Origin: Nitrosopumilus sp.
Lineage (GTDB): Archaea > Thermoproteota > Nitrososphaeria > Nitrososphaerales > Nitrosopumilaceae
Length of the DNA stretch: 64,000 bases
Direction: 5' to 3'
Assembly (NCBI GenBank): GCA_965223425.1
Contig: OZ245003.1
Location: 1,664,001 to 1,728,000 of the forward strand
The notes under the pieces: model-generated
Database searches by the model: none
What the model saw: the letters and a program-made list of their open reading frames with translations, nothing else
Told to the model about the DNA's origin: nothing
Translations under genes and position numbers: made by a program
Part shown: piece after piece, positions 17,121-34,529 of the stretch
How the letters are laid out: each line of letters begins with the position of its first letter
Position numbering within the stretch: the stretch's first letter is position 1

Positions 17121-17512
17121 AATTGGCACTGATATCAATATTTTTTATCTCATTTTTGTCAGCAGTATATGCGGTATTTCTAGACGGAATGATGGAGGAA
17201 TACGGGGTTTTTGTGGCCCTGGGAATTTACGGCGCGGCCTTTGCGGCTGATTTTCTTTCCACCATATTCGCGCAGGACGCACAAAAGAGGGAAAAGAATC
17301 CCATCGCAAGATACATGTCAAAATTTGTCGGGTTTCGCACGTCACTTGTCCTGGTCGGGGCAGTCGGTCTCTCAATACAGATTGTGGCGTATCTTGTGAC
17401 AGGCAACATGATAGTCACATACCTTATGGCGGTACTGCACGCATATGCCGCCTTTTCAAATCTGTGGCATCAAAAATCCGCCTCAAATACAAAACATGTT
17501 GAAACATTGTGA
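17117..17512 (+). CDS. Membrane protein (DUF5658-like)
   Basis: Several TM segments; 'ADFLST...EKNPIA' motif. Confidence 0.5.
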   Translation: MKLALISIFFISFLSAVYAVFLDGMMEEYGVFVALGIYGAAFAADFLSTIFAQDAQKREKNPIARYMSKFVGFRTSLVLVGAVGLSIQIVAYLVTGNMIVTYLMAVLHAYAAFSNLWHQKSASNTKHVETL

Positions 17513-18018
17513 ACATGAACAAGATAAAAATTGTAAATGTCGTGGCAAAGGCGGTGATTGCGGGCCATGACAACAACACAATACTAAAGACCGTAAGAAA
17601 TGCAGAATACCGCCCGAACAATTTTCCCGCGATCGGAATAAAGACTGCAAAGGCAAAGATATGGCTGTACAATTCCGGGAAGGTGACATCGACTGGGACA
17701 AATTCCATGGATGAGGCACTTGTCAGCATAACTGACTTTGTGCATGAGATGGCGAGGCTTGGCATGTCAATCAAGATGATATCAGAGCCGAGGGTCGTGC
17801 TGGTCGTGGCCAACGTCTTTGTCTCAAAGAAGCTTGACATCATAAAGATGCGGCACATGGTAAAGTCGTCGCAGCCGAGGTTTACGTCGCGTACCGTGCA
17901 GTTTGGCGACGGAAAACATGCAAGAATCTATGACAACAACGCCGTGATTGCCAGTGCGTCCTCCATAGACGGGATCATTGAGATCGTAAAGAAGCTTGAA
18001 AAATACCAGATGGAATGA
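17509..18018 (+). CDS. tbp: TATA-box binding protein homologue (divergent)
   Basis: 'IKIVNVVA', 'AEYRPNNFPAI', 'LYNSGKVTSTGT' match TBP repeat 1; repeat 2 is degenerate. Confidence 0.8.
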   Translation: MNMNKIKIVNVVAKAVIAGHDNNTILKTVRNAEYRPNNFPAIGIKTAKAKIWLYNSGKVTSTGTNSMDEALVSITDFVHEMARLGMSIKMISEPRVVLVVANVFVSKKLDIIKMRHMVKSSQPRFTSRTVQFGDGKHARIYDNNAVIASASSIDGIIEIVKKLEKYQME

Positions 18019-22835: not shown

Positions 22836-22904
22836 AATGAGGGCTCAGAGGTCGTCTCACTCATCACAGAGTCAGAAGTCGTTGGTCTCATCATTGCCCT
22901 CATT
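22836..22904 (-). ncRNA. Box C/D sRNA
   Basis: Minus strand: AATGAGGGC-a-ATGATGA(C)-gaccaacgactt-CTGA(D')-ctct-GTGATGA(C')-gtgagacgacct-CTGA(D)-GCCCTCATT; 9-bp terminal stem, 12-nt guides. Confidence 0.88.
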
Positions 22905-29443: not shown

Positions 29444-29507
29444 AGGGCCATGATGAGACTCCATTCATTCTGACATCAATATGATGACAGAGATCAGTCT
29501 GAGCCCT
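29444..29507 (+). ncRNA. Box C/D sRNA
   Basis: AGGGC-c-ATGATGA-gactccattcatt-CTGA-catcaat-ATGATGA-cagagatcagt-CTGA-GCCCT; all four boxes canonical. Confidence 0.88.
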
Positions 29508-29590: not shown

Positions 29591-29653
29591 AGGGCGGTGA
29601 TGAGTTCCATTCATTCTGTCATCATTATGATGATAAACCCCCAGTCCTGGCCC
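29591..29653 (+). ncRNA. Box C/D sRNA, degenerate paralogue
   Basis: GGGC..GTGATGA-gttccattcatt-CTGT-catcatt-ATGATGA-...-GCCC; D/D' boxes mutated; shares upstream AATCAAGATAATAAAAA with the 29444 copy. Confidence 0.6.
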
Positions 29654-29696: not shown

Positions 29697-29794
29697 AAAC
29701 ATCCTGATGAGCCCTTTTGGGCCAACTCCAATCAGAACATAACTGGTTTGGATGAGCCCTACTAGGGCGAAACTGCCATTGGCAGTCGATGTTT
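29697..29794 (+). ncRNA. Type I hammerhead ribozyme (extended stem II)
   Basis: P1 AAACATC/GATGTTT; CTGATGA; P2 GCCCT...AGGGC; GAAA; P3 CTGCC-ATT-GGCAG; GTC cleavage after 29787. Confidence 0.85.
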
Positions 29795-30136
29795 CGCAAA
29801 ATACTTTCGCGAGTATCTGGTGGCGAAAAGCTGCCAACAATCAGAAAGGGCACTAAAGAGTATGCCCTAAGAATATTCCTTCGAGGGGGATATGTTCTCC
29901 GTGATGGTTCACGATTGGTATGTTTGCCCACTTGTTATTGGGATCACAAACTAGACCGGCCATACATGGAATGGTTTGAAATAAGCCGAGACGGCACTCT
30001 AACATATTACAGACTAAAGGATTCTGTAAAGGCTGTTGCCGAGTGCAAGGTTGAATCAAATTATGGGTTCATACCAAAAGCCACATACCCTCGTGTCATG
30101 AAGGCCTGTCGGGCTCCATGCAACTCTGGTTGTTAA
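29789..30136 (+). CDS. Hypothetical protein starting 1 nt after hammerhead cut
   Basis: 115-aa ORF; first 12 codons shared with the 30327 ORF. Confidence 0.55.
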   Translation: MFRKILSRVSGGEKLPTIRKGTKEYALRIFLRGGYVLRDGSRLVCLPTCYWDHKLDRPYMEWFEISRDGTLTYYRLKDSVKAVAECKVESNYGFIPKATYPRVMKACRAPCNSGC

Positions 30137-30234
30137 CTGATAATTCCTCTCACGAGGAATATCTTCCCCTTTTTATTAAACTGTAAATTTACAGCATGCC
30201 AAACCGGCATTCCAATGAAAACTTTCAAAAAGAA

Positions 30235-30332
30235 AAACATCCTGATGAGCCCTTTTGGGCCAACTCCAATCAGAACATAACTGGTTTGGATGAGCCCTGC
30301 TAGGGCGAAACTGCCATTGGCAGTCGATGTTT
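30235..30332 (+). ncRNA. Type I hammerhead ribozyme (near-identical copy)
   Basis: Same as the 29697 copy apart from a loop change; cleavage after 30325. Confidence 0.85.
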
Positions 30333-30560
30333 CGCAAAATACTTTCGCGAGTATCTGGTGGCAAAAAGCCACAAACCAAAGAGTGTCCAGATAACATTGT
30401 CTGCATGGAAGACGAAAGAATCGGATACATCGAACGTGACGGTTCGCGGTTGGAACGTTATCCATGGAGATGTCAGCAGGAAGACTACGATAAAGGTTAT
30501 CCAGAACTGAAATGGGCCAACCTCCGGTTAGACAAAGCAGCTTGCAGAGAAGCAAGTTGA
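30327..30560 (+). CDS. Hypothetical protein starting 1 nt after hammerhead cut
   Basis: 77 aa; shares MFRKILSRVSGG and 'RDGSRL' with the 29789 protein. Confidence 0.5.
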   Translation: MFRKILSRVSGGKKPQTKECPDNIVCMEDERIGYIERDGSRLERYPWRCQQEDYDKGYPELKWANLRLDKAACREAS

Positions 30561-31134
30561 CTCAGAGTCTTCATACGTCTTTGGTTACTAACTGATAATT
30601 CCTCTCATGAGGAATATCTTCCCCTTTTTTATTAAACAGAAACTAATTTTACAGCATGCCAAACCGGCATCCATAAATCATTCTTGAAAATATAACATCA
30701 AATCAAACACGGCAATCGCACAGAGACATGCAGATGAGCTTTTTTATTATCATAATTTTATCAATTCAACATCATATTGGGCCAGTGTCCCAATTTACAA
30801 AGGCAAATTTCAGAAAATTTCACGCCATTGCTTCCTTATTATGATGAGCAAGAAAAAAACACCCTATTATCCGCGCATCAAGCGAGAATTTGAGCCCGAC
30901 CCGGAAGACAAGGAAATCTGGTAGGCGCTCATGCCCCTTTTTTTCTATAACATCCATTTGATTGTTTTATCATTATGTACATGCGTTCCGGCATGTCTTT
31001 ATGAAATTGTAATGATGACTGGCACGGGGCGTATGGAATCGCCTGAGTTTCGGACTGTGATGAAACAGTTTGAGCAAAGTCCACACGAGTGCCCACATTC
31101 AATTCATGAAACAGCGAAAGCTTGACCAAGAAAA

Positions 31135-31186
31135 CCATGCCGATGTGCTCTACTTGAGCGAAACAGCCCTTTGTGGCAGTCCATGG
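31135..31186 (+). ncRNA. Type I hammerhead ribozyme, variant core
   Basis: CCATG-CCGATGT-GCTC tactt GAGC-GAAA-CAGCC ctttgt GGCAG-TC-CATGG; core deviates (U4C, A9U); cut after 31181. Confidence 0.65.
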
Positions 31187-31596
31187 AAAGAACCATGACA
31201 AAGAAAGTCAAATTTCTTAAAAGGAGACTTGCCTGTTCCTTGCGTATAGAAAACATCTCTTATCGACTGATGTTTGATTGCGGTCCAATAGGAAGACCAT
31301 ATTCTGCAATCGTTTATCAGCTGATGTTTGATTGCGGTCCAATAGGAAGACCATATTCTATAATCGTGAGTCTAGTCAACAAGCTTCTCAGAAAAGAAAG
31401 ACTCTATCCTAACGACTACGACAGTCCGGATTTTCCTGCATGCTGCAGAAAAACGATTGTTGGGTTGGAAAATACCAGTAGTATTAAGGGCAGCGCATTT
31501 CCTCACAGATGCAAGACCTGCAATAGGGAGTGGCAATACTACTTTGGATATGTGTTGCATAGTAGCCTATTTGGAGAACAGCCAATATGGGACTGA
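31183..31596 (+). CDS. Cys-rich hypothetical protein with internal duplication
   Basis: In-frame ATG at 31183; LMFDCGPIGRPYS x2; CC...CxxC. Confidence 0.5.
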   Translation: MERTMTKKVKFLKRRLACSLRIENISYRLMFDCGPIGRPYSAIVYQLMFDCGPIGRPYSIIVSLVNKLLRKERLYPNDYDSPDFPACCRKTIVGLENTSSIKGSAFPHRCKTCNREWQYYFGYVLHSSLFGEQPIWD

Positions 31597-31728
31597 CCCC
31601 CACTCTTTTTTTCTAATCATATTTTCTTAATTTTAGACACACAACACCTGCAAATAATCAACACATACTTTTTGATTATTTCATTAATGCGGCAAGGCAT
31701 CACCTCTTGCTGTTTTGTAATTCCAACG

Positions 31729-31790
31729 GGGGCCATGATGAGACAGAACAGTTCCGACTCTGTGATGAGTGAGACGACATCCGAGTCCTC
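31729..31790 (+). ncRNA. Box C/D sRNA (paralogue of 22836..22904)
   Basis: ATGATGA-gacagaacagtt-CCGA-ctct-GTGATGA-gtgagacgacat-CCGA; terminal stem. Confidence 0.75.
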
Positions 31791-31867
31791 ATTGTCAGTA
31801 ACTGTATCATTGATTTTAACCTTGGTGCCACTCTGTACAGTCTTGCACCGCTTTGAAAAAATCCAAC

Positions 31868-31981
31868 GGGGGCGATGATGAATAAAATTATGGCCCAATC
31901 TCATGATGAGACACAACAGTTCCACTCCTGGAATCCACCTCCTCCTAGAAGGTTCTGTGACAGGCCGCTATCTGAGCCCCC
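31868..31981 (+). ncRNA. Extended/atypical box C/D-like sRNA
   Basis: GGGGGC stem, ATGATGA, second ATGATGA, long insert, terminal CTGA-GCCCCC. Confidence 0.55.
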
Positions 31982-32000
31982 ATCAATCATACAAATTAGA

Positions 32001-32053
32001 GTCATGCTGATGTGCTCCCAATGAGCGAAACTGCCATTATGGCAGTCCATGGC
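32001..32053 (+). ncRNA. Type I hammerhead ribozyme
   Basis: GTCATG-CTGATGT-GCTC ccaat GAGC-GAAA-CTGCC attat GGCAG-TC-CATGGC; cut after 32047; ATG at 32049. Confidence 0.8.
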
Positions 32054-32714
32054 AAAACAAATTCTCAAACAGATTGCAAAAGCAATCGCAATAACCGTGA
32101 TTGTAGTGATTACGGCATCCATTGTGTGGACATTTGTTGTTCCGATGCTGCCACTGAGCCAAGTGTCAGATATTGTAGAAGAGAATGTGAAAGAGCCGTT
32201 AGAGAAACTTGTTTCACAAACACCGCTTGCACCAGATGAGCAAGTCACAAATGGAACGCCAAAGAACAATGACGCCCCATCGTCATACGATGACATTGAC
32301 GACCCGCCATCGGACATAGTTACCTCATATGATCCACCAGACATGGATTTTCTGAACAGTGGCACTGTAACCAAAGTCATTGACGGCGACACGATTGATA
32401 TCGACAACATGCGATTCAGACTTGCTCTGATAGACACTCCTGAGAGAGGCGAGGCCGGATACAATGAGGCAAGGATGTTCCTGTTGAAGAACTGTCCCGT
32501 ACAGTCGTTGGCACTGTATGATATCGACGACAAACAGAAGACGGACAAGTACGGACGATACATAGGAAAGGTATGGTGTTATGGATATCCACCTGTCGTT
32601 CCTGAAAATTCCATGAACAGCAAACTTGTAAACGAGGGACATGCAGTGGTTGTCTCAACGTTTTGCAGGTCAAGCGAATATGGAAATGAGCAGTGGTTAG
32701 ACCCACACTGCTAG
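32049..32714 (+). CDS. Membrane-anchored thermonuclease (SNase family)
   Basis: 'VTKVIDGDTI', 'RLALIDTPE', 'DKYGR', 'NSKLVNEGHA'; N-terminal TM. Confidence 0.88.
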   Translation: MAKQILKQIAKAIAITVIVVITASIVWTFVVPMLPLSQVSDIVEENVKEPLEKLVSQTPLAPDEQVTNGTPKNNDAPSSYDDIDDPPSDIVTSYDPPDMDFLNSGTVTKVIDGDTIDIDNMRFRLALIDTPERGEAGYNEARMFLLKNCPVQSLALYDIDDKQKTDKYGRYIGKVWCYGYPPVVPENSMNSKLVNEGHAVVVSTFCRSSEYGNEQWLDPHC

Positions 32715-32868
32715 TATTGTTCTCTTTCACATACCATCCCCCCCCTTTTTTTCTAATCAAATTTTTTGTACGGACATCTGATTATTTTTTCGTGACCTGG
32801 CATGTCATCCCAAATCTTGCACCAGTATGTTCAAACATACCTGACAGGCAGGCAAGTGTGGGGATGAT

Positions 32869-32954
32869 GGTGAGTTTACCTAGCAAGGTAAGGTGTCCGA
32901 CTGATAATCGGAATGTCTGTCAGGACAGCGTGGGTTCGAATCCCACACTCACCG
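32869..32954 (+). tRNA. tRNA with GAU (Ile) anticodon on a class II, Ser-like body
   Basis: Acceptor GGTGAGT/ACTCACC + G73; D ACCT/AGGT; AC TCCGA-CTGATAA-TCGGA; long V-arm TGTCT/GGACA; T GTGGG-TTCGAAT-CCCAC. Confidence 0.88.
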
Positions 32955-33009
32955 TAATACTCCTGCATATTAAAACATTCAGGAGAGAAATTCAAAAAAG
33001 TGAACAAAA

Positions 33010-33393
33010 ATGGGAATGTATGATGAGGTCGTAGCGGCCATAACATGTCCCTGCTGCAAGAGAAGGTATCTGGATTATGGAATCCAAACAAAGAACTTTC
33101 GGTGCGTACTCTCCAAAATATTTGAAAATGACGACACGAGGAATATTGTGGAGGAAAGGAAATCGTTTGGAAACATAAGGAACGAGACGTTCAAATGTTT
33201 TACATTCTGTGTAATGTGTTCTGCGGGAATCAATATGACAGGAGTCATATCAGAATATGTGTTTCGTGGAGTCAAGGCGGACTCGTTTAATGAGAATATA
33301 AAAAGGTCCGGAACAGATGGAATTGCAATTGATCCCTCCATCATGACAGAAAATGGAAACCATGCAGCAGAAAACGGACTGCTAAAACCCTGA
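33010..33393 (+). CDS. Zinc-finger hypothetical protein (MGMYD...CPCC...QTK family)
   Basis: Two CxxC-type pairs; duplicated at 34146..34529. Confidence 0.65.
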   Translation: MGMYDEVVAAITCPCCKRRYLDYGIQTKNFRCVLSKIFENDDTRNIVEERKSFGNIRNETFKCFTFCVMCSAGINMTGVISEYVFRGVKADSFNENIKRSGTDGIAIDPSIMTENGNHAAENGLLKP

Positions 33394-33828: not shown

Positions 33829-34002
33829 TTACAACCCTCAATATTAGACCATTAATGAGGTAAATTCAAAAGTGAAAACCATGCAGCAGAAAACGGACTG
33901 CTAAAACCCTGATTATTTTTTCGTGACCTGGCATGTCATCCCAAATCTTGCACCAGTATGTTCAAACATACCTGACAGGCAGGCAAGTGTGGGGATGATA
34001 AT

Positions 34003-34090
34003 GGTGAGTTTATCTAGTAAGGTAAGATGTCGCCCTGATGAGGCGATTGCTTCTGACGGAGCATCGTGGGTTCAAATCCCACACTCACCG
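34003..34090 (+). tRNA. Second intact GAU-anticodon, long-variable-arm tRNA
   Basis: D ATCT/AGAT; AC TCGCC-CTGATGA-GGCGA; V-arm TGCTTC/GGAGCA; G73; compensatory changes relative to the 32869 copy. Confidence 0.88.
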
Positions 34091-34145
34091 TAATACTCCT
34101 GCATATTAAAACATTCAGGAGAGAAATTCAAAAAAGTGAACAAAA

Positions 34146-34529
34146 ATGGGAATGTATGATGAGGTCGTAGCGACCATAACATGTCCCTGCTGCAAGAGAA
34201 GGTATCTGGATTATGGAATCCAAACAAAGAACTTTCGGTGCGTACTCTCCAAAATATTTGAAAATGACGACACGAGGAATATTGTGGAGGAGAGGAAATC
34301 GTTTGGAAACATAAGGAACGAGACGTTCAAATGTTTTACATTCTGTGTAATGTGTTCTGCGGGAATCAATATGACAGGAGTCATATCAGAATATGTGTTT
34401 CGTGGAGTCAAGGCGGACTCGTTTAATGAGAATATAAAAAGGCCCGGAACAGATGGAATTGCAATTGATCCCTCCATCATGACAGAAAATGGAAACCATG
34501 CAGCAGAAAACGGACTGCTAAAACCCTGA
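34146..34529 (+). CDS. Duplicate of 33010..33393
   Basis: Differs at 2 residues. Confidence 0.65.
   Translation: MGMYDEVVATITCPCCKRRYLDYGIQTKNFRCVLSKIFENDDTRNIVEERKSFGNIRNETFKCFTFCVMCSAGINMTGVISEYVFRGVKADSFNENIKRPGTDGIAIDPSIMTENGNHAAENGLLKP

What the first reader, a model, noticed from the sequence alone, without database searches (positions are those of the whole stretch)
29697..32053. Four hammerhead ribozymes each cut exactly 1 nt before a start codon: candidate ribozyme-made leaderless mRNAs
Seen: type I hammerheads at 29697, 30235, 31135 and 32001 have GTC cleavage sites ending at 29787, 30325, 31181 and 32047. ORF ATGs sit at 29789, 30327, 31183 and 32049. In every case the ATG lies inside the 3' strand of stem I, even though stem I differs between copies (ACATC/GATGT versus CATG/CATG) and the downstream genes are mostly unrelated. 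Known: hammerhead cleavage leaves a 5'-OH end, and archaea commonly translate leaderless mRNA. Inference: the ribozyme is a portable 5'-end generator or translation switch that hides the AUG until self-cleavage. I do not know of this being described in archaeal mobile elements.
Basis: partly seen in the sequence, partly recalled or inferred. Interest (0 to 1): 0.95.

Follow-up and report, generated by a model that had tools for sequence, protein, structure and literature searches.

The report
Hammerhead ribozymes abutting archaeal start codons
Self-cleaving hammerhead RNA motifs in a mobile element of an ammonia-oxidising archaeon, and in its relatives, sit so that the predicted cut falls one or two bases before a start codon, which would turn a longer transcript into a nearly leaderless messenger RNA.

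Summary
GTC ends at 29787, 30325, 31181 and 32047, and ATG follows one base later, inside the 3' strand of stem I.

Qualifications:
- HH1 and HH2 are one 162-nt duplication. Their core is canonical but stem II carries a ~54-nt insertion.
- HH3 and HH4 have CUGAUGU (A9U). HH3 also has U4C and a stem III mismatch.
- None reaches an Rfam gathering score.

A covariance model built from HH3/HH4 recovers 79 phage type I hammerheads. A general model then finds 15 distinct hammerheads in six other genomes of the host's family. All 15 have ATG or GTG starting 1-2 nt after the cleavage site. In 12 of 15 it opens an ORF of at least 30 aa.

By contrast, phage copies have 20-32-nt leaders, mostly with Shine-Dalgarno-like motifs (54 of 74). 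Sister archaeal families have 6-28-nt leaders.

The host shows promoter spacing typical of leaderless genes. Nine of the 15 relatives, and HH4, follow a C/D-box sRNA.

Cleavage and translation remain untested. The reading is plausible, apparently undescribed, and directly testable.

The parts
29697..29794 (+). HH1: type I hammerhead. Stem I 5' strand 29697-29703, CUGAUGA 29704-29710, extended stem II 29711-29768 (~54-nt insertion holding a second GAUGAGCCC..GGGC), GAAA 29769-29772, stem III hairpin, GUC 29785-29787, stem I 3' strand 29788-29794 containing ATG 29789-29791.
   Evidence: MFE -38.4 kcal/mol, z -4.9. Local hit of R1 at 29.7 bits and of R2 at 34.9 bits. Two near-isoenergetic folds.
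30235..30332 (+). HH2: duplicate of HH1 with one loop difference. GUC 30323-30325, ATG 30327-30329.
   Evidence: repeat D1, 95% identical, spacing 538.
31135..31186 (+). HH3: hammerhead-like, core CCGAUGU (U4C and A9U), A:A mismatch in stem III. GUC 31179-31181, ATG 31183-31185.
   Evidence: z -0.9; R1 81.2 bits, a training sequence; R2 50.4 bits.
32001..32053 (+). HH4: type I hammerhead with core CUGAUGU (A9U) and intact stems. GUC 32045-32047, ATG 32049-32051.
   Evidence: MFE gives the three-way junction, z -2.0; HH9 18.8 bits; R2 59.6 bits.
29789..30136 (+). ORF1, 115 aa, no Pfam family. Paralogue of ORF2.
   Evidence: Conserved residues differ by synonymous codons (read).
30327..30560 (+). 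ORF2, 77 aa. The first 13 residues are identical to ORF1.
31183..31596 (+). ORF3, 137 aa from the ATG in stem I. On record from the ATG at 31195 (133 aa). Contains a 54-nt tandem repeat.
32049..32714 (+). ORF4, 221 aa: N-terminal hydrophobic segment plus staphylococcal-nuclease domain. On record with this start. Orthologues in G139 start inside a hammerhead in the same way.
31868..31981 (+). Long C/D-box RNA: GGGGGC stem, C box, C' box, D box CUGA, GCCCCC stem. It ends 17 nt before the R2 match of HH4.
29445..29507 (+). Canonical C/D-box sRNA with C, D', C' and D boxes and a GGGC/GCCC terminal stem.
   Evidence: (SNORD60 27.8 bits, below the cut-off of 42). The guide has a 9-nt complement in 23S rRNA.
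29593..29651 (+). Degenerate copy of that sRNA (D' CUGU, D CUGG), ending about 45 nt before HH1. The guide has an 11-nt complement in 23S rRNA.
30137..30174 (+). Hairpin plus T-run after ORF1. The same module follows ORF2 (30592-30630). A different shared T-run module follows ORF3 (31598-31625) and ORF4 (32738-32765). Each unit is therefore hammerhead, ORF, terminator-like end.
   Evidence: repeats D3, D8, D13.

Best explanation
The four motifs belong to a lineage of type I hammerhead ribozymes carried by integrated conjugative-type elements of Nitrosopumilaceae-like ammonia oxidisers. The ribozyme is built around the start codon. AUG (rarely GUG) is paired inside the 3' strand of stem I, 1-2 nt downstream of the scissile bond.

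Proposed mechanism (inferred):
1. A longer precursor is transcribed. Often it begins with a C/D-box sRNA. In other cases it may begin at the ribozyme itself.
2. While uncut, the AUG is internal, base-paired and has no Shine-Dalgarno sequence, so it is not used.
3. Self-cleavage and melting of the 5-7-bp stem I release an mRNA with a 5'-OH and a 1-2-nt leader.
4. The host's leaderless initiation pathway can take that mRNA.
5. The upstream piece (sRNA plus ribozyme) is released with a 2',3'-cyclic phosphate.

What is shown: the sequence, the fold, family membership, conserved spacing, frame continuity with real genes, and leaderless-type promoter spacing in the host. What is inferred: cleavage in vivo, co-transcription with the sRNA, and translation of the product.

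For the window itself, HH1/2 (canonical core, long stem II) and HH4 (A9U only) are plausibly active. HH3 is probably impaired.
For: 1. Family membership. Model R1, built only from HH3 and HH4, finds 79 phage or metagenome type I hammerheads at 20-52 bits in 49 fetched loci. That alignment has 98.9% paired cells and a covariation score of 0.716 against 0.163 in shuffles.

2. Relatives. General model R2 finds strong matches (E 1e-13 to 3e-8) in G148, G072, G149, G139, G423 and G542, all of the host's family. In the printed rows, 15 of 15 distinct hammerheads have a start codon at +2 (10 ATG, 1 GTG) or +3 (4 ATG). The base pair next to the cleavage site covaries (GC 7, CG 6, AU 5, UA 1). Overall 97.1% of cells are paired, with covariation 0.690 against 0.129 in shuffles.

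3. Frame. By a rule that ignores position, the first ORF of at least 30 aa starts at leader 1-2 in 12 of 15 relatives and 4 of 4 window copies. With ATG only and at least 50 aa, the count is 9 of 15 and 4 of 4.

4. Contrast. In phage members the leader is 20-32 nt in 54 of 74. It is 4 nt or less in 5 of 74, and each of those five shows a second ATG at 22-33 nt; four of the five also have a Shine-Dalgarno-like motif before it. In nine hammerheads of five other archaeal families the leader is 6-28 nt, several with GAGG or GGGGUG inside stem I.

5. Orthologues of ORF4. In G139 (45% identical, aligned from residue 1) the gene starts inside a canonical-core hammerhead. In G542 an 11-aa uORF starts at +2 and its stop overlaps the gene's ATG (UAAUG). 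In G148 there is no hammerhead but GGUGA lies 7 nt before the ATG.

6. Host. TATA-like hexamers peak at -31 to -27 from the ATG (130 counts over five positions, against about 2-10 per position elsewhere). Shine-Dalgarno-like motifs peak at -16 to -11 (179 counts). The sample was 879 genes.

7. Constraint. HH3 and HH4 are similar only within the module (score 32 against 6.7 +/- 1.4 for shuffles). Their flanks are not similar.

8. A9U. Passages read in PMC10085705 say this change cut activity at least 20-fold in an artificial ribozyme, but occurs in a functional natural one and cleaved in vitro in their example.

9. Precedent. Hammerheads flank prophage genes. The HF1/HF2 halovirus variant lies 13 nt before a start codon, with a mapped 5' end within 3 nt of the site (PMC3088659, passages).
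Against: - There are no cleavage data and no RNA data. No RNA run was listed.
- In Saccharolobus toeprints a 5'-OH leaderless mRNA formed initiation complexes less well than the 5'-triphosphate form (PMC11698992, passages). That paper also says the triphosphate mimics a -1 base, which the extra nucleotide here might replace. That step is my inference.
- All four window copies are atypical. They show A9U (0 of 79 phage copies and 0 of 15 archaeal relatives have it), U4C, or a 54-nt stem II insertion. None reaches an Rfam gathering score.
- In 3 of 15 relatives the +2/+3 codon opens only 11, 11 or 26 codons.
- ORF3 is annotated from a later ATG. ORF1 and ORF2 are not in the protein collection.
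- Promoter positions are unresolved. Some TATA-like motifs predict starts at or inside the ribozyme's 5' strand, for example 29678 predicting 29705-29709.
- The 15 relatives share descent, so they are not 15 independent events.
- The arrangement is rare: 3 of 150 other genomes of the genus had a match.
Confidence: 0.55

Rival explanations
1. The ribozyme mainly serves the upstream RNA. It defines the 3' end of a co-transcribed C/D-box sRNA precursor, or insulates or ends upstream transcripts. On this view the closeness to the AUG only reflects tight packing of cassettes.
For: By one rule (C box, D box, terminal stem of at least 4 bp), a C/D-box RNA ends 17-52 nt upstream of 9 of 15 relatives and 1 of 4 window copies. 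The same rule hits 34 of 20,000 random 220-nt genome windows and 0 of 9 hammerheads of other families. Rfam C/D families match these elements at E 5e-4 to 8e-3, below their cut-offs. Co-transcription of C/D sRNAs with mRNAs, and the need to excise them, is discussed in PMC6009581 (passages).
Against: Six of 15 relatives and HH2 have no such sRNA and follow a T-run instead. Packing alone does not explain why the start codon sits at exactly +2 or +3 and is paired in stem I in 19 of 19, while the neighbouring pair covaries. In G148 a TATA-like motif lies between the sRNA and the ribozyme.
Confidence: 0.2
2. The fold works without cutting. It is a stem I hairpin-junction that hides the AUG and opens with temperature, ions or a factor. 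This would apply especially to the core-variant copies HH3 and HH4.
For: The AUG is paired in every copy. HH3 and HH4 deviate at core positions that are invariant in 79 of 79 phage copies. HH1 has two folds within 1 kcal/mol, -38.4 and -37.4.
Against: An internal AUG without a Shine-Dalgarno sequence would still lack an entry route after melting. All 15 relatives keep the complete catalytic core (CUGANGA, GAAA, NUH), which a mere hairpin would not need. A9U variants can cleave.
Confidence: 0.1
3. The window copies are decaying relics of a selfish repeat. The ATG is inherited with the repeat and has no present role.
For: The window copies carry core changes, a stem mismatch, an insertion and a duplication. 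HH3 folds no better than shuffles. Only 4 copies exist in the genome.
Against: Differences between HH3 and HH4 fall mostly in loops, while stems and core are kept and the flanks have diverged beyond recognition. The ATGs are in frame with ORFs of 77-221 aa. ORF4 carries a nuclease domain and is annotated with that start. The orthologous G139 locus keeps the ribozyme with compensatory stem changes.
Confidence: 0.1

Closest known systems
Type I hammerheads flanking genes in prophages and phages (Perreault et al. 2011, PMC3088659; abstract and passages read)
   Same: Same ribozyme family by covariance model. Both are intergenic, lie just upstream of ORFs in mobile elements, and often occur several in a row. 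A role in processing long transcripts into gene-length mRNAs was proposed there.
   Different: Phage copies leave a 20-32-nt leader, mostly with a Shine-Dalgarno-like motif (54 of 74). Here the leader is 1-2 nt, there is no Shine-Dalgarno sequence, and the start codon is part of stem I.
HHphage variant of haloarchaeal viruses HF1/HF2 (discussion passage of PMC3088659)
   Same: An archaeal mobile element with a ribozyme directly upstream of the first ORF of a transcript. The mapped 5' end lies within 3 nt of the cleavage site.
   Different: It lies 13 nt before the start codon, and its core has insertions. The start codon is not inside stem I. I did not compare its sequence.
Laboratory hammerhead constructs used to make leaderless mRNA starting at AUG with a 5'-OH (methods passage of PMC11698992), and synthetic ribozyme insulators (recalled, not looked up)
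   Same: The same trick: a ribozyme placed between the transcription start and the AUG removes itself and leaves an mRNA that starts at the codon.
   Different: Those are engineered. In that study the 5'-OH form bound the archaeal 30S subunit less well than the triphosphate form. The natural copies keep one or two extra nucleotides.
Endonuclease-made leaderless mRNAs: MazF in E. coli, and tRNA punctuation of mitochondrial transcripts (both recalled, not looked up)
   Same: Cleavage just upstream of the AUG converts an internal cistron into a leaderless mRNA. MazF has the same end chemistry (5'-OH and cyclic phosphate).
   Different: Those use protein enzymes acting in trans. Here the cut would be made in cis by the RNA itself.
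Archaeal C/D-box sRNAs co-transcribed with or overlapping mRNAs (PMC6009581, passages)
   Same: An sRNA lies directly upstream of an ORF on the same strand, and the two must be separated.
   Different: No ribozyme is mentioned in the passages read. In those cases the start codon lies within the sRNA.

Membership tests
Hammerhead ribozyme, type I | Three-way junction with hairpin stems II and III and an open stem I | tested here: met
   MFE folds of HH1, HH2 and HH4 give the junction. Models R1 and R2 match. Covariation was shown on the phage and archaeal alignments.
Hammerhead ribozyme, type I | Core strand CUGANGA | tested here: inconclusive
   Met in HH1 and HH2 (CUGAUGA). Not met in HH4 (CUGAUGU) or HH3 (CCGAUGU). 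A9 and U4 are invariant in 79 of 79 phage copies. A9U is reported as tolerated in some natural ribozymes.
Hammerhead ribozyme, type I | GAAA strand, A15.1-U16.1 pair and an NUH cleavage triplet | tested here: met
   CGAAAC ... GUC is present in 4 of 4.
Hammerhead ribozyme, type I | Rfam gathering score of a hammerhead family | tested here: not met
   Window: none at gathering. Best scores were 18.8 against 52 (HH9) and 20 against 56.3 (RAGATH-1-hammerhead). Relatives: RF00163 scored 35.4 against 34 for one G072 hammerhead, and 33.8, 28.2 and 27.5 for three others.
Hammerhead ribozyme, type I | Self-cleavage leaving 2',3'-cyclic phosphate and 5'-OH ends | not testable with these tools
   No RNA runs were listed. 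An in vitro assay is needed.
Hammerhead ribozyme, type I | Tertiary contact between stems I and II | not tested
   I only inspected it by eye. No convincing pseudoknot was found for HH3 or HH4. In HH1/2 the stem II loop is replaced by a long rod.
Phage or prophage gene-flanking hammerheads | Intergenic, upstream of an ORF in a mobile element, with a leader that carries the ribosome-binding site | tested here: not met
   The location in an integrated conjugative-type element is met (TraG/VirB4-like, VirD4-like and ArdC-like proteins). A leader with a Shine-Dalgarno sequence is not met: the leader is 1 nt.
Leaderless mRNA | AUG at or within a few nt of the 5' end, with no Shine-Dalgarno sequence | tested here: inconclusive
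   This is predicted for the cleavage product. The host shows leaderless-type promoter spacing. The 5' end would be OH rather than triphosphate, and no ends have been mapped.
Archaeal C/D-box sRNA (upstream elements) | C, D', C' and D boxes with a terminal stem, and a guide complementary to rRNA | tested here: met
   29445-29507 has all boxes and the stem. Guides have 9- and 11-nt complements in 23S rRNA. Rfam scores are below the cut-offs (27.8 against 42).

The most novel reading that the evidence does not exclude
In mobile elements of ammonia-oxidising archaea, a hammerhead ribozyme acts as a portable substitute for a ribosome-binding site. Any ORF fused to its stem I is released as a 5'-OH mRNA with a 1-2-nt leader and is translated by the leaderless route. 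The ribozyme is often combined with a C/D-box sRNA gene in an sRNA-ribozyme-mRNA cassette, so that one promoter yields a guide RNA and a translatable mRNA. Across hosts, the position of the same ribozyme family tracks the local initiation signal. It lies before the Shine-Dalgarno sequence in phages, contains that sequence in stem I in sister archaeal families, and contains the AUG in stem I here.
Probability: 0.45. Interest if true: 0.9.

Novelty: new variant of a known kind. Interest (0 to 1): 0.8.

Why it matters
Perreault et al. 2011 state that the biological role of the hundreds of bacterial and archaeal hammerheads remains unclear (passage). This lineage offers a sharp, testable rule: the distance from the cut to the start codon is fixed at 1-2 nt and the codon is part of the ribozyme.

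If confirmed, it would be a natural case of an RNA that makes its own leaderless mRNA. It would show that archaeal ribosomes accept 5'-OH ends with one extra base. It would also explain how sRNA-mRNA co-transcripts can be separated without a protein nuclease.

It would further give a compact natural part for gene expression in archaea.

My searches of the held library found no paper describing this:
- hammerhead + Thaumarchaeota: 5 papers by listing. I read passages of one (PMC11698992), where the hammerhead is only a laboratory tool; the other titles are on unrelated subjects.
- hammerhead + Nitrosopumilus: 0 papers.
- self-cleaving ribozyme + leaderless mRNA: 4 papers, none on this by title or abstract.

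Tried and rejected
- Rfam at gathering thresholds found no hammerhead in the window.
- The strict stem II pattern (GATGWGCYC..GRGCGAAAC) found none in 400 other genomes of the class.
- Model R1, which is too sequence-specific, gave only three weak matches in 150 relatives. Their alignments lack the core, so I rejected them.
- The metagenome scan with a long pattern returned six stretches. Five are bacterial-phage-type hammerheads with Shine-Dalgarno leaders. The sixth (L136) lacks the CU of the core strand and has no nearby start.
- The search for related loci with ORF4 and with the actin-like protein found no relative in viral contigs.
- ORF1 has no homologue in the protein collection. ORF4 homologues cover only the nuclease half.
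- No RNA holder was listed for the region.
- The contigs laid from three runs were identical to the window apart from one T>G at 32252 in one low-depth contig of X5, outside the ribozymes, so they gave no information on ribozyme variation or ends.
- Promoter prediction was inconclusive. The genome-derived matrix carries little information beyond the TATA hexamer. TATA-like motifs near the ribozymes give conflicting start predictions.
- The pattern CTGAYGAG..CGAAAC..GTCNATGGCA in genome contigs gave 10 stretches.
  - Four lie in records titled Nitrosopumilus sp. or Nitrosopumilaceae (L173-L175, L179).
  - L173 gave the same four matches and scores as L143/L148 and adds nothing new.
  - L174, L175 and L179 were not analysed further.
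  - The six bacterial stretches had no R2 match at E up to 0.1.
- The one viral-contig hit (L180) is a phage hammerhead whose +2 ATG opens 8 codons, followed by GGGAGG and another ATG.
- The phylum-level hit G698 (L169) was not examined.
- I considered that the ATG might be needed for catalysis. I rejected this because these stem I positions vary freely in phage copies.
Dataset S1 and Figures S6-S7 of PMC3088659 and Figure S9 of PMC10085705, which may show A9U variants or archaeal examples, were not seen.


Full report
**What is in the window**

The four motifs are at the stated places.
- HH1 spans 29697-29794 and HH2 spans 30235-30332. Both read AAACAUC-CUGAUGA-[long stem II]-GAAAC-UGCC auu GGCA-GUC-GAUGUUU.
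- HH3 spans 31135-31186 and reads CCAUG-CCGAUGU-GCUC uacuu GAGC-GAAAC-...-GUC-CAUGG.
- HH4 spans 32001-32053 and reads GUCAUG-CUGAUGU-GCUC ccaau GAGC-GAAAC-UGCCA uua UGGCA-GUC-CAUGGC.

In each, the ATG begins one base after the C of GUC and pairs with CAU in the 5' strand of stem I.

The shared 3' half occurs 4 times in the window and in none of 100 shuffles. It occurs only 4 times in the 2.64-Mb genome. A strict type I descriptor run on the whole genome returns HH1, HH2 and one long, probably chance, hit elsewhere.

RNAfold gives the hammerhead junction as the minimum-energy fold for HH1, HH2 and HH4 (z -4.9, -3.4, -2.0). HH3 is no better than shuffles.

**Qualifications to the observation**

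- HH1 and HH2 lie in a 162-nt duplication with 5 mismatches, one of them in a ribozyme loop. It runs from 27 nt upstream of the ribozyme to codon 14 of the ORF.
- ORF1 and ORF2 are paralogues. In the conserved block GY..RDGSRL, five codons differ synonymously (read). This argues that both are coding.
- HH1/2 carry a ~54-nt insertion in stem II that repeats GAUGAGCCC..GGGC. The three-way-junction fold (-38.4 kcal/mol) and a multi-hairpin fold (-37.4) are nearly isoenergetic.
- HH3 and HH4 have U instead of A at the last core position. HH3 also has C for U4 and an A:A mismatch.
- Rfam finds no hammerhead at gathering scores and only weak sub-threshold matches.
- The protein collection holds ORF4 with the start at 32049, but holds ORF3 from 31195. 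The exact ORF1 and ORF2 sequences are absent.

**Setting**

The host encodes archaeal AmoA, so it is an ammonia-oxidising archaeon.

The window holds the following proteins. Together they point to an integrated conjugative-type element:
- TraG/VirB4-like and VirD4-like ATPases;
- an MmeI-type restriction-modification enzyme;
- an actin-like protein;
- a TBP homologue;
- an ArdC-like protein.

Each of the four ORFs is followed by a T-run module. One module is shared by ORF1 and ORF2, and another by ORF3 and ORF4. The units therefore look like cassettes of ribozyme, ORF and terminator. HH3 and HH4 are alike only within the ribozyme; their flanks are no more alike than shuffles.

**Family membership**

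A covariance model built from HH3 and HH4 alone (R1) finds only the four copies in the window and in the genome. The same model finds 79 type I hammerheads in 49 phage or metagenome loci that I had fetched with a stem II pattern.

That alignment shows strong covariation. It also has A9 and U4 in 79 of 79. The loci were chosen with a pattern that allowed A or T at position 9. Many of the 79 are further copies in the same loci that the pattern did not select.

So the window motifs are members of the phage-type type I lineage, and A9U is a real departure. Passages of PMC10085705 state three things about exactly this A-to-U change:
- it reduced cleavage at least 20-fold in an artificial ribozyme (Ruffner et al. 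1990);
- it occurs in a functional natural ribozyme (Przybilski and Hammann 2007);
- it cleaved in vitro in one of their own predictions.

I did not see the supplementary figure.

**The comparative test**

A general model (R2, built from the 83-row alignment) was run on samples of 150 genomes at five ranks. In the host's family it found the following.

| Genome | Matches |
|---|---|
| G148 | 5 |
| G072 | 4 |
| G149 | 1 |
| G139 | 2 identical copies |
| G423 | 2 |
| G542 | 2 |

The family-rank sample added no new genome.

These are 15 distinct ribozymes. Read in the model alignment:
- ATG starts at +2 in ten: L142a, L150a, L143a, L143b, L148a, L155, L157, L156a, L156b and L146.
- GTG starts at +2 in one: L144.
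- ATG starts at +3 in four: L142b, L150b, L150c and L148b.

Stem I differs among them (for example GCCAUG/CAUGGC, GUCAUU/AAUGAC, GGCAUG/CAUGUC, GCCUGC/GCAUGGC). The pair next to the cut covaries, while the AUG stays fixed.

I then applied a rule that ignores position, the same one used for phages. The first ATG-ORF of at least 50 aa has a leader of 1-2 nt in 9 of 15. The first ATG/GTG/TTG-ORF of at least 30 aa does so in 12 of 15. The three exceptions are:
- a 26-aa ORF in G072, whose product resembles a small ORF at 30841-30924 of the window;
- an 11-aa uORF in G542, whose stop overlaps the ATG of the ORF4 homologue;
- an 11-codon GTG frame in G149.

Rfam's type I model reaches its cut-off for one G072 copy (35.4 against 34) and falls just below for others.

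**Contrast groups**

In phage copies the same rule gives leaders of 20-32 nt in 54 of 74. Five of 74 are 4 nt or shorter, and each of those shows a second ATG at 22-33 nt in the printout; four of the five also have a Shine-Dalgarno-like motif before it. No ORF was found for 3 further copies.

Nine hammerheads in other families of the class (f4, f7, f10, f15, f27) have leaders of 6-28 nt. In four of them GAGG or GGGGUG lies inside the 3' strand of stem I. In two, upstream of a phage tail-tube gene, a Shine-Dalgarno-like motif follows stem I.

At phylum rank only one further genome had a match, and I did not examine it.

**Orthologues of ORF4**

- G139 has a TraG/VirB4-like protein 66% identical to the window's, 30 kb from its hammerhead. 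Its two ORF4 orthologues (44% and 45% identical, aligned from residue 1) have first bases lying inside a canonical-core hammerhead. Stems II and III differ from HH4 by paired changes.
- In G542 the homologue is coupled to the +2 uORF (UAAUG).
- In G148 the homologue has no hammerhead, but has GGUGA 7 nt before its ATG.

The 16S rRNA ends in ...GGAUCACCUCCU.

**Host translation signals**

I took 879 ORFs of at least 200 aa whose first ATG lies within 45 nt of the upstream stop. TATA-like hexamers pile up at -31 to -27 from the ATG. Shine-Dalgarno-like motifs pile up at -16 to -11. Both leaderless and Shine-Dalgarno-led genes therefore appear to exist in this organism.

**An added feature: C/D-box sRNAs**

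By one rule, a C/D-box RNA ends 17-52 nt upstream of the following:
- 9 of 15 relatives;
- HH4 in the window (1 of 4);
- 34 of 20,000 random windows;
- 0 of 9 hammerheads of other families.

HH1 follows a copy with a degenerate D box. The guides of the two sRNAs upstream of HH1 have 9- and 11-nt complements in 23S rRNA.

Whether the sRNA and the ORF share a transcript is open. In G148 a TATA-like motif between them would place the start at the first base of the ribozyme. Elsewhere no such motif is seen.

**Reading**

The best-supported explanation is that these ribozymes create a 1-2-nt-leader mRNA and keep the AUG sequestered until they cut.

The main caveats are:
- the lack of any RNA or activity data;
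- the reported weaker binding of 5'-OH leaderless mRNA to a crenarchaeal 30S subunit;
- the atypical state of all four window copies.

The closest precedents are the gene-flanking prophage hammerheads and the HF1/HF2 variant 13 nt before a start codon. I found no description of a start codon built into stem I, of hammerheads in ammonia oxidisers, or of a link to C/D-box sRNAs in the searches listed under Why it matters.

Noticed in passing
window 29445-29507, 29593-29651, 31868-31981 (+) and 22845-22894 (-): The conjugative-type element carries C/D-box sRNA genes. Two of the three strict-pattern hits in the whole genome lie in this window. Two guides have 9- and 11-nt complements at about position 2063 of 23S rRNA. 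A mobile element that brings rRNA methylation guides is unusual.
   Followed up: partly
window 32868-32955 and 34002-34091: Two tRNA-Ile(GAU)-like genes of 88-90 nt with long variable arms sit in a ~1.1-kb tandem repeat. The 127-aa ORFs at 33010-33393 and 34146-34529 are near-identical. Further repeated fragments of the same sequence occur at about 33404, 33597, 33923 and 35307.
   Followed up: no
IMG/VR and metagenome loci L010-L139: Phage type I hammerheads sit at a very regular distance from the next gene. The leader from cut to ATG is 20-32 nt in 54 of 74, usually with a Shine-Dalgarno-like motif, and copies often form arrays of 3-5 per locus.
   Followed up: partly
L161, L162, L163, L166 (G553, G446, G333): In other families of the order, the 3' strand of stem I contains GAGG or GGGGUG, with the start codon 12-14 nt after the cut. 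The Shine-Dalgarno-like motif, rather than the AUG, would be hidden in stem I. Two of these genes encode EB_dh-domain proteins.
   Followed up: partly
window 30841-30924 and L148 (G072:C31, downstream of 2472-2527): A conserved ~26-aa ORF ending ..PRIKREFE.DPEDKEIW occurs in both. It follows a hammerhead in G072 but not in the window.
   Followed up: no
window 30184-30210 and 30644-30670; also L143 and L167: A conserved intergenic element (..ACAGCAUGCCAAACCGGCAU.., a small hairpin) follows the T-run terminators. Related CAAACCGGCA elements recur upstream of cassettes in G072 and G148. It may be a promoter or regulatory module.
   Followed up: no
window 29711-29768: The stem II insertion of HH1/2 repeats the GAUGAGCCC..GGGC half of the ribozyme. 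It gives two folds within 1 kcal/mol, one competent for the hammerhead junction and one not. This could be a conformational switch.
   Followed up: partly
window 17509-18018: The element encodes its own TATA-binding-protein homologue (Pfam TBP, E 4.9e-10).
   Followed up: no
window 30726-30745: ACAUGCAGAUGAGC followed by a T-run resembles the 5' half of an HH3/4-type ribozyme (stem I plus core strand) without the rest. It may be a remnant.
   Followed up: no
window 31255-31362: ORF3 contains a 54-nt tandem duplication, 89% identical, that repeats an 18-residue peptide.
   Followed up: no
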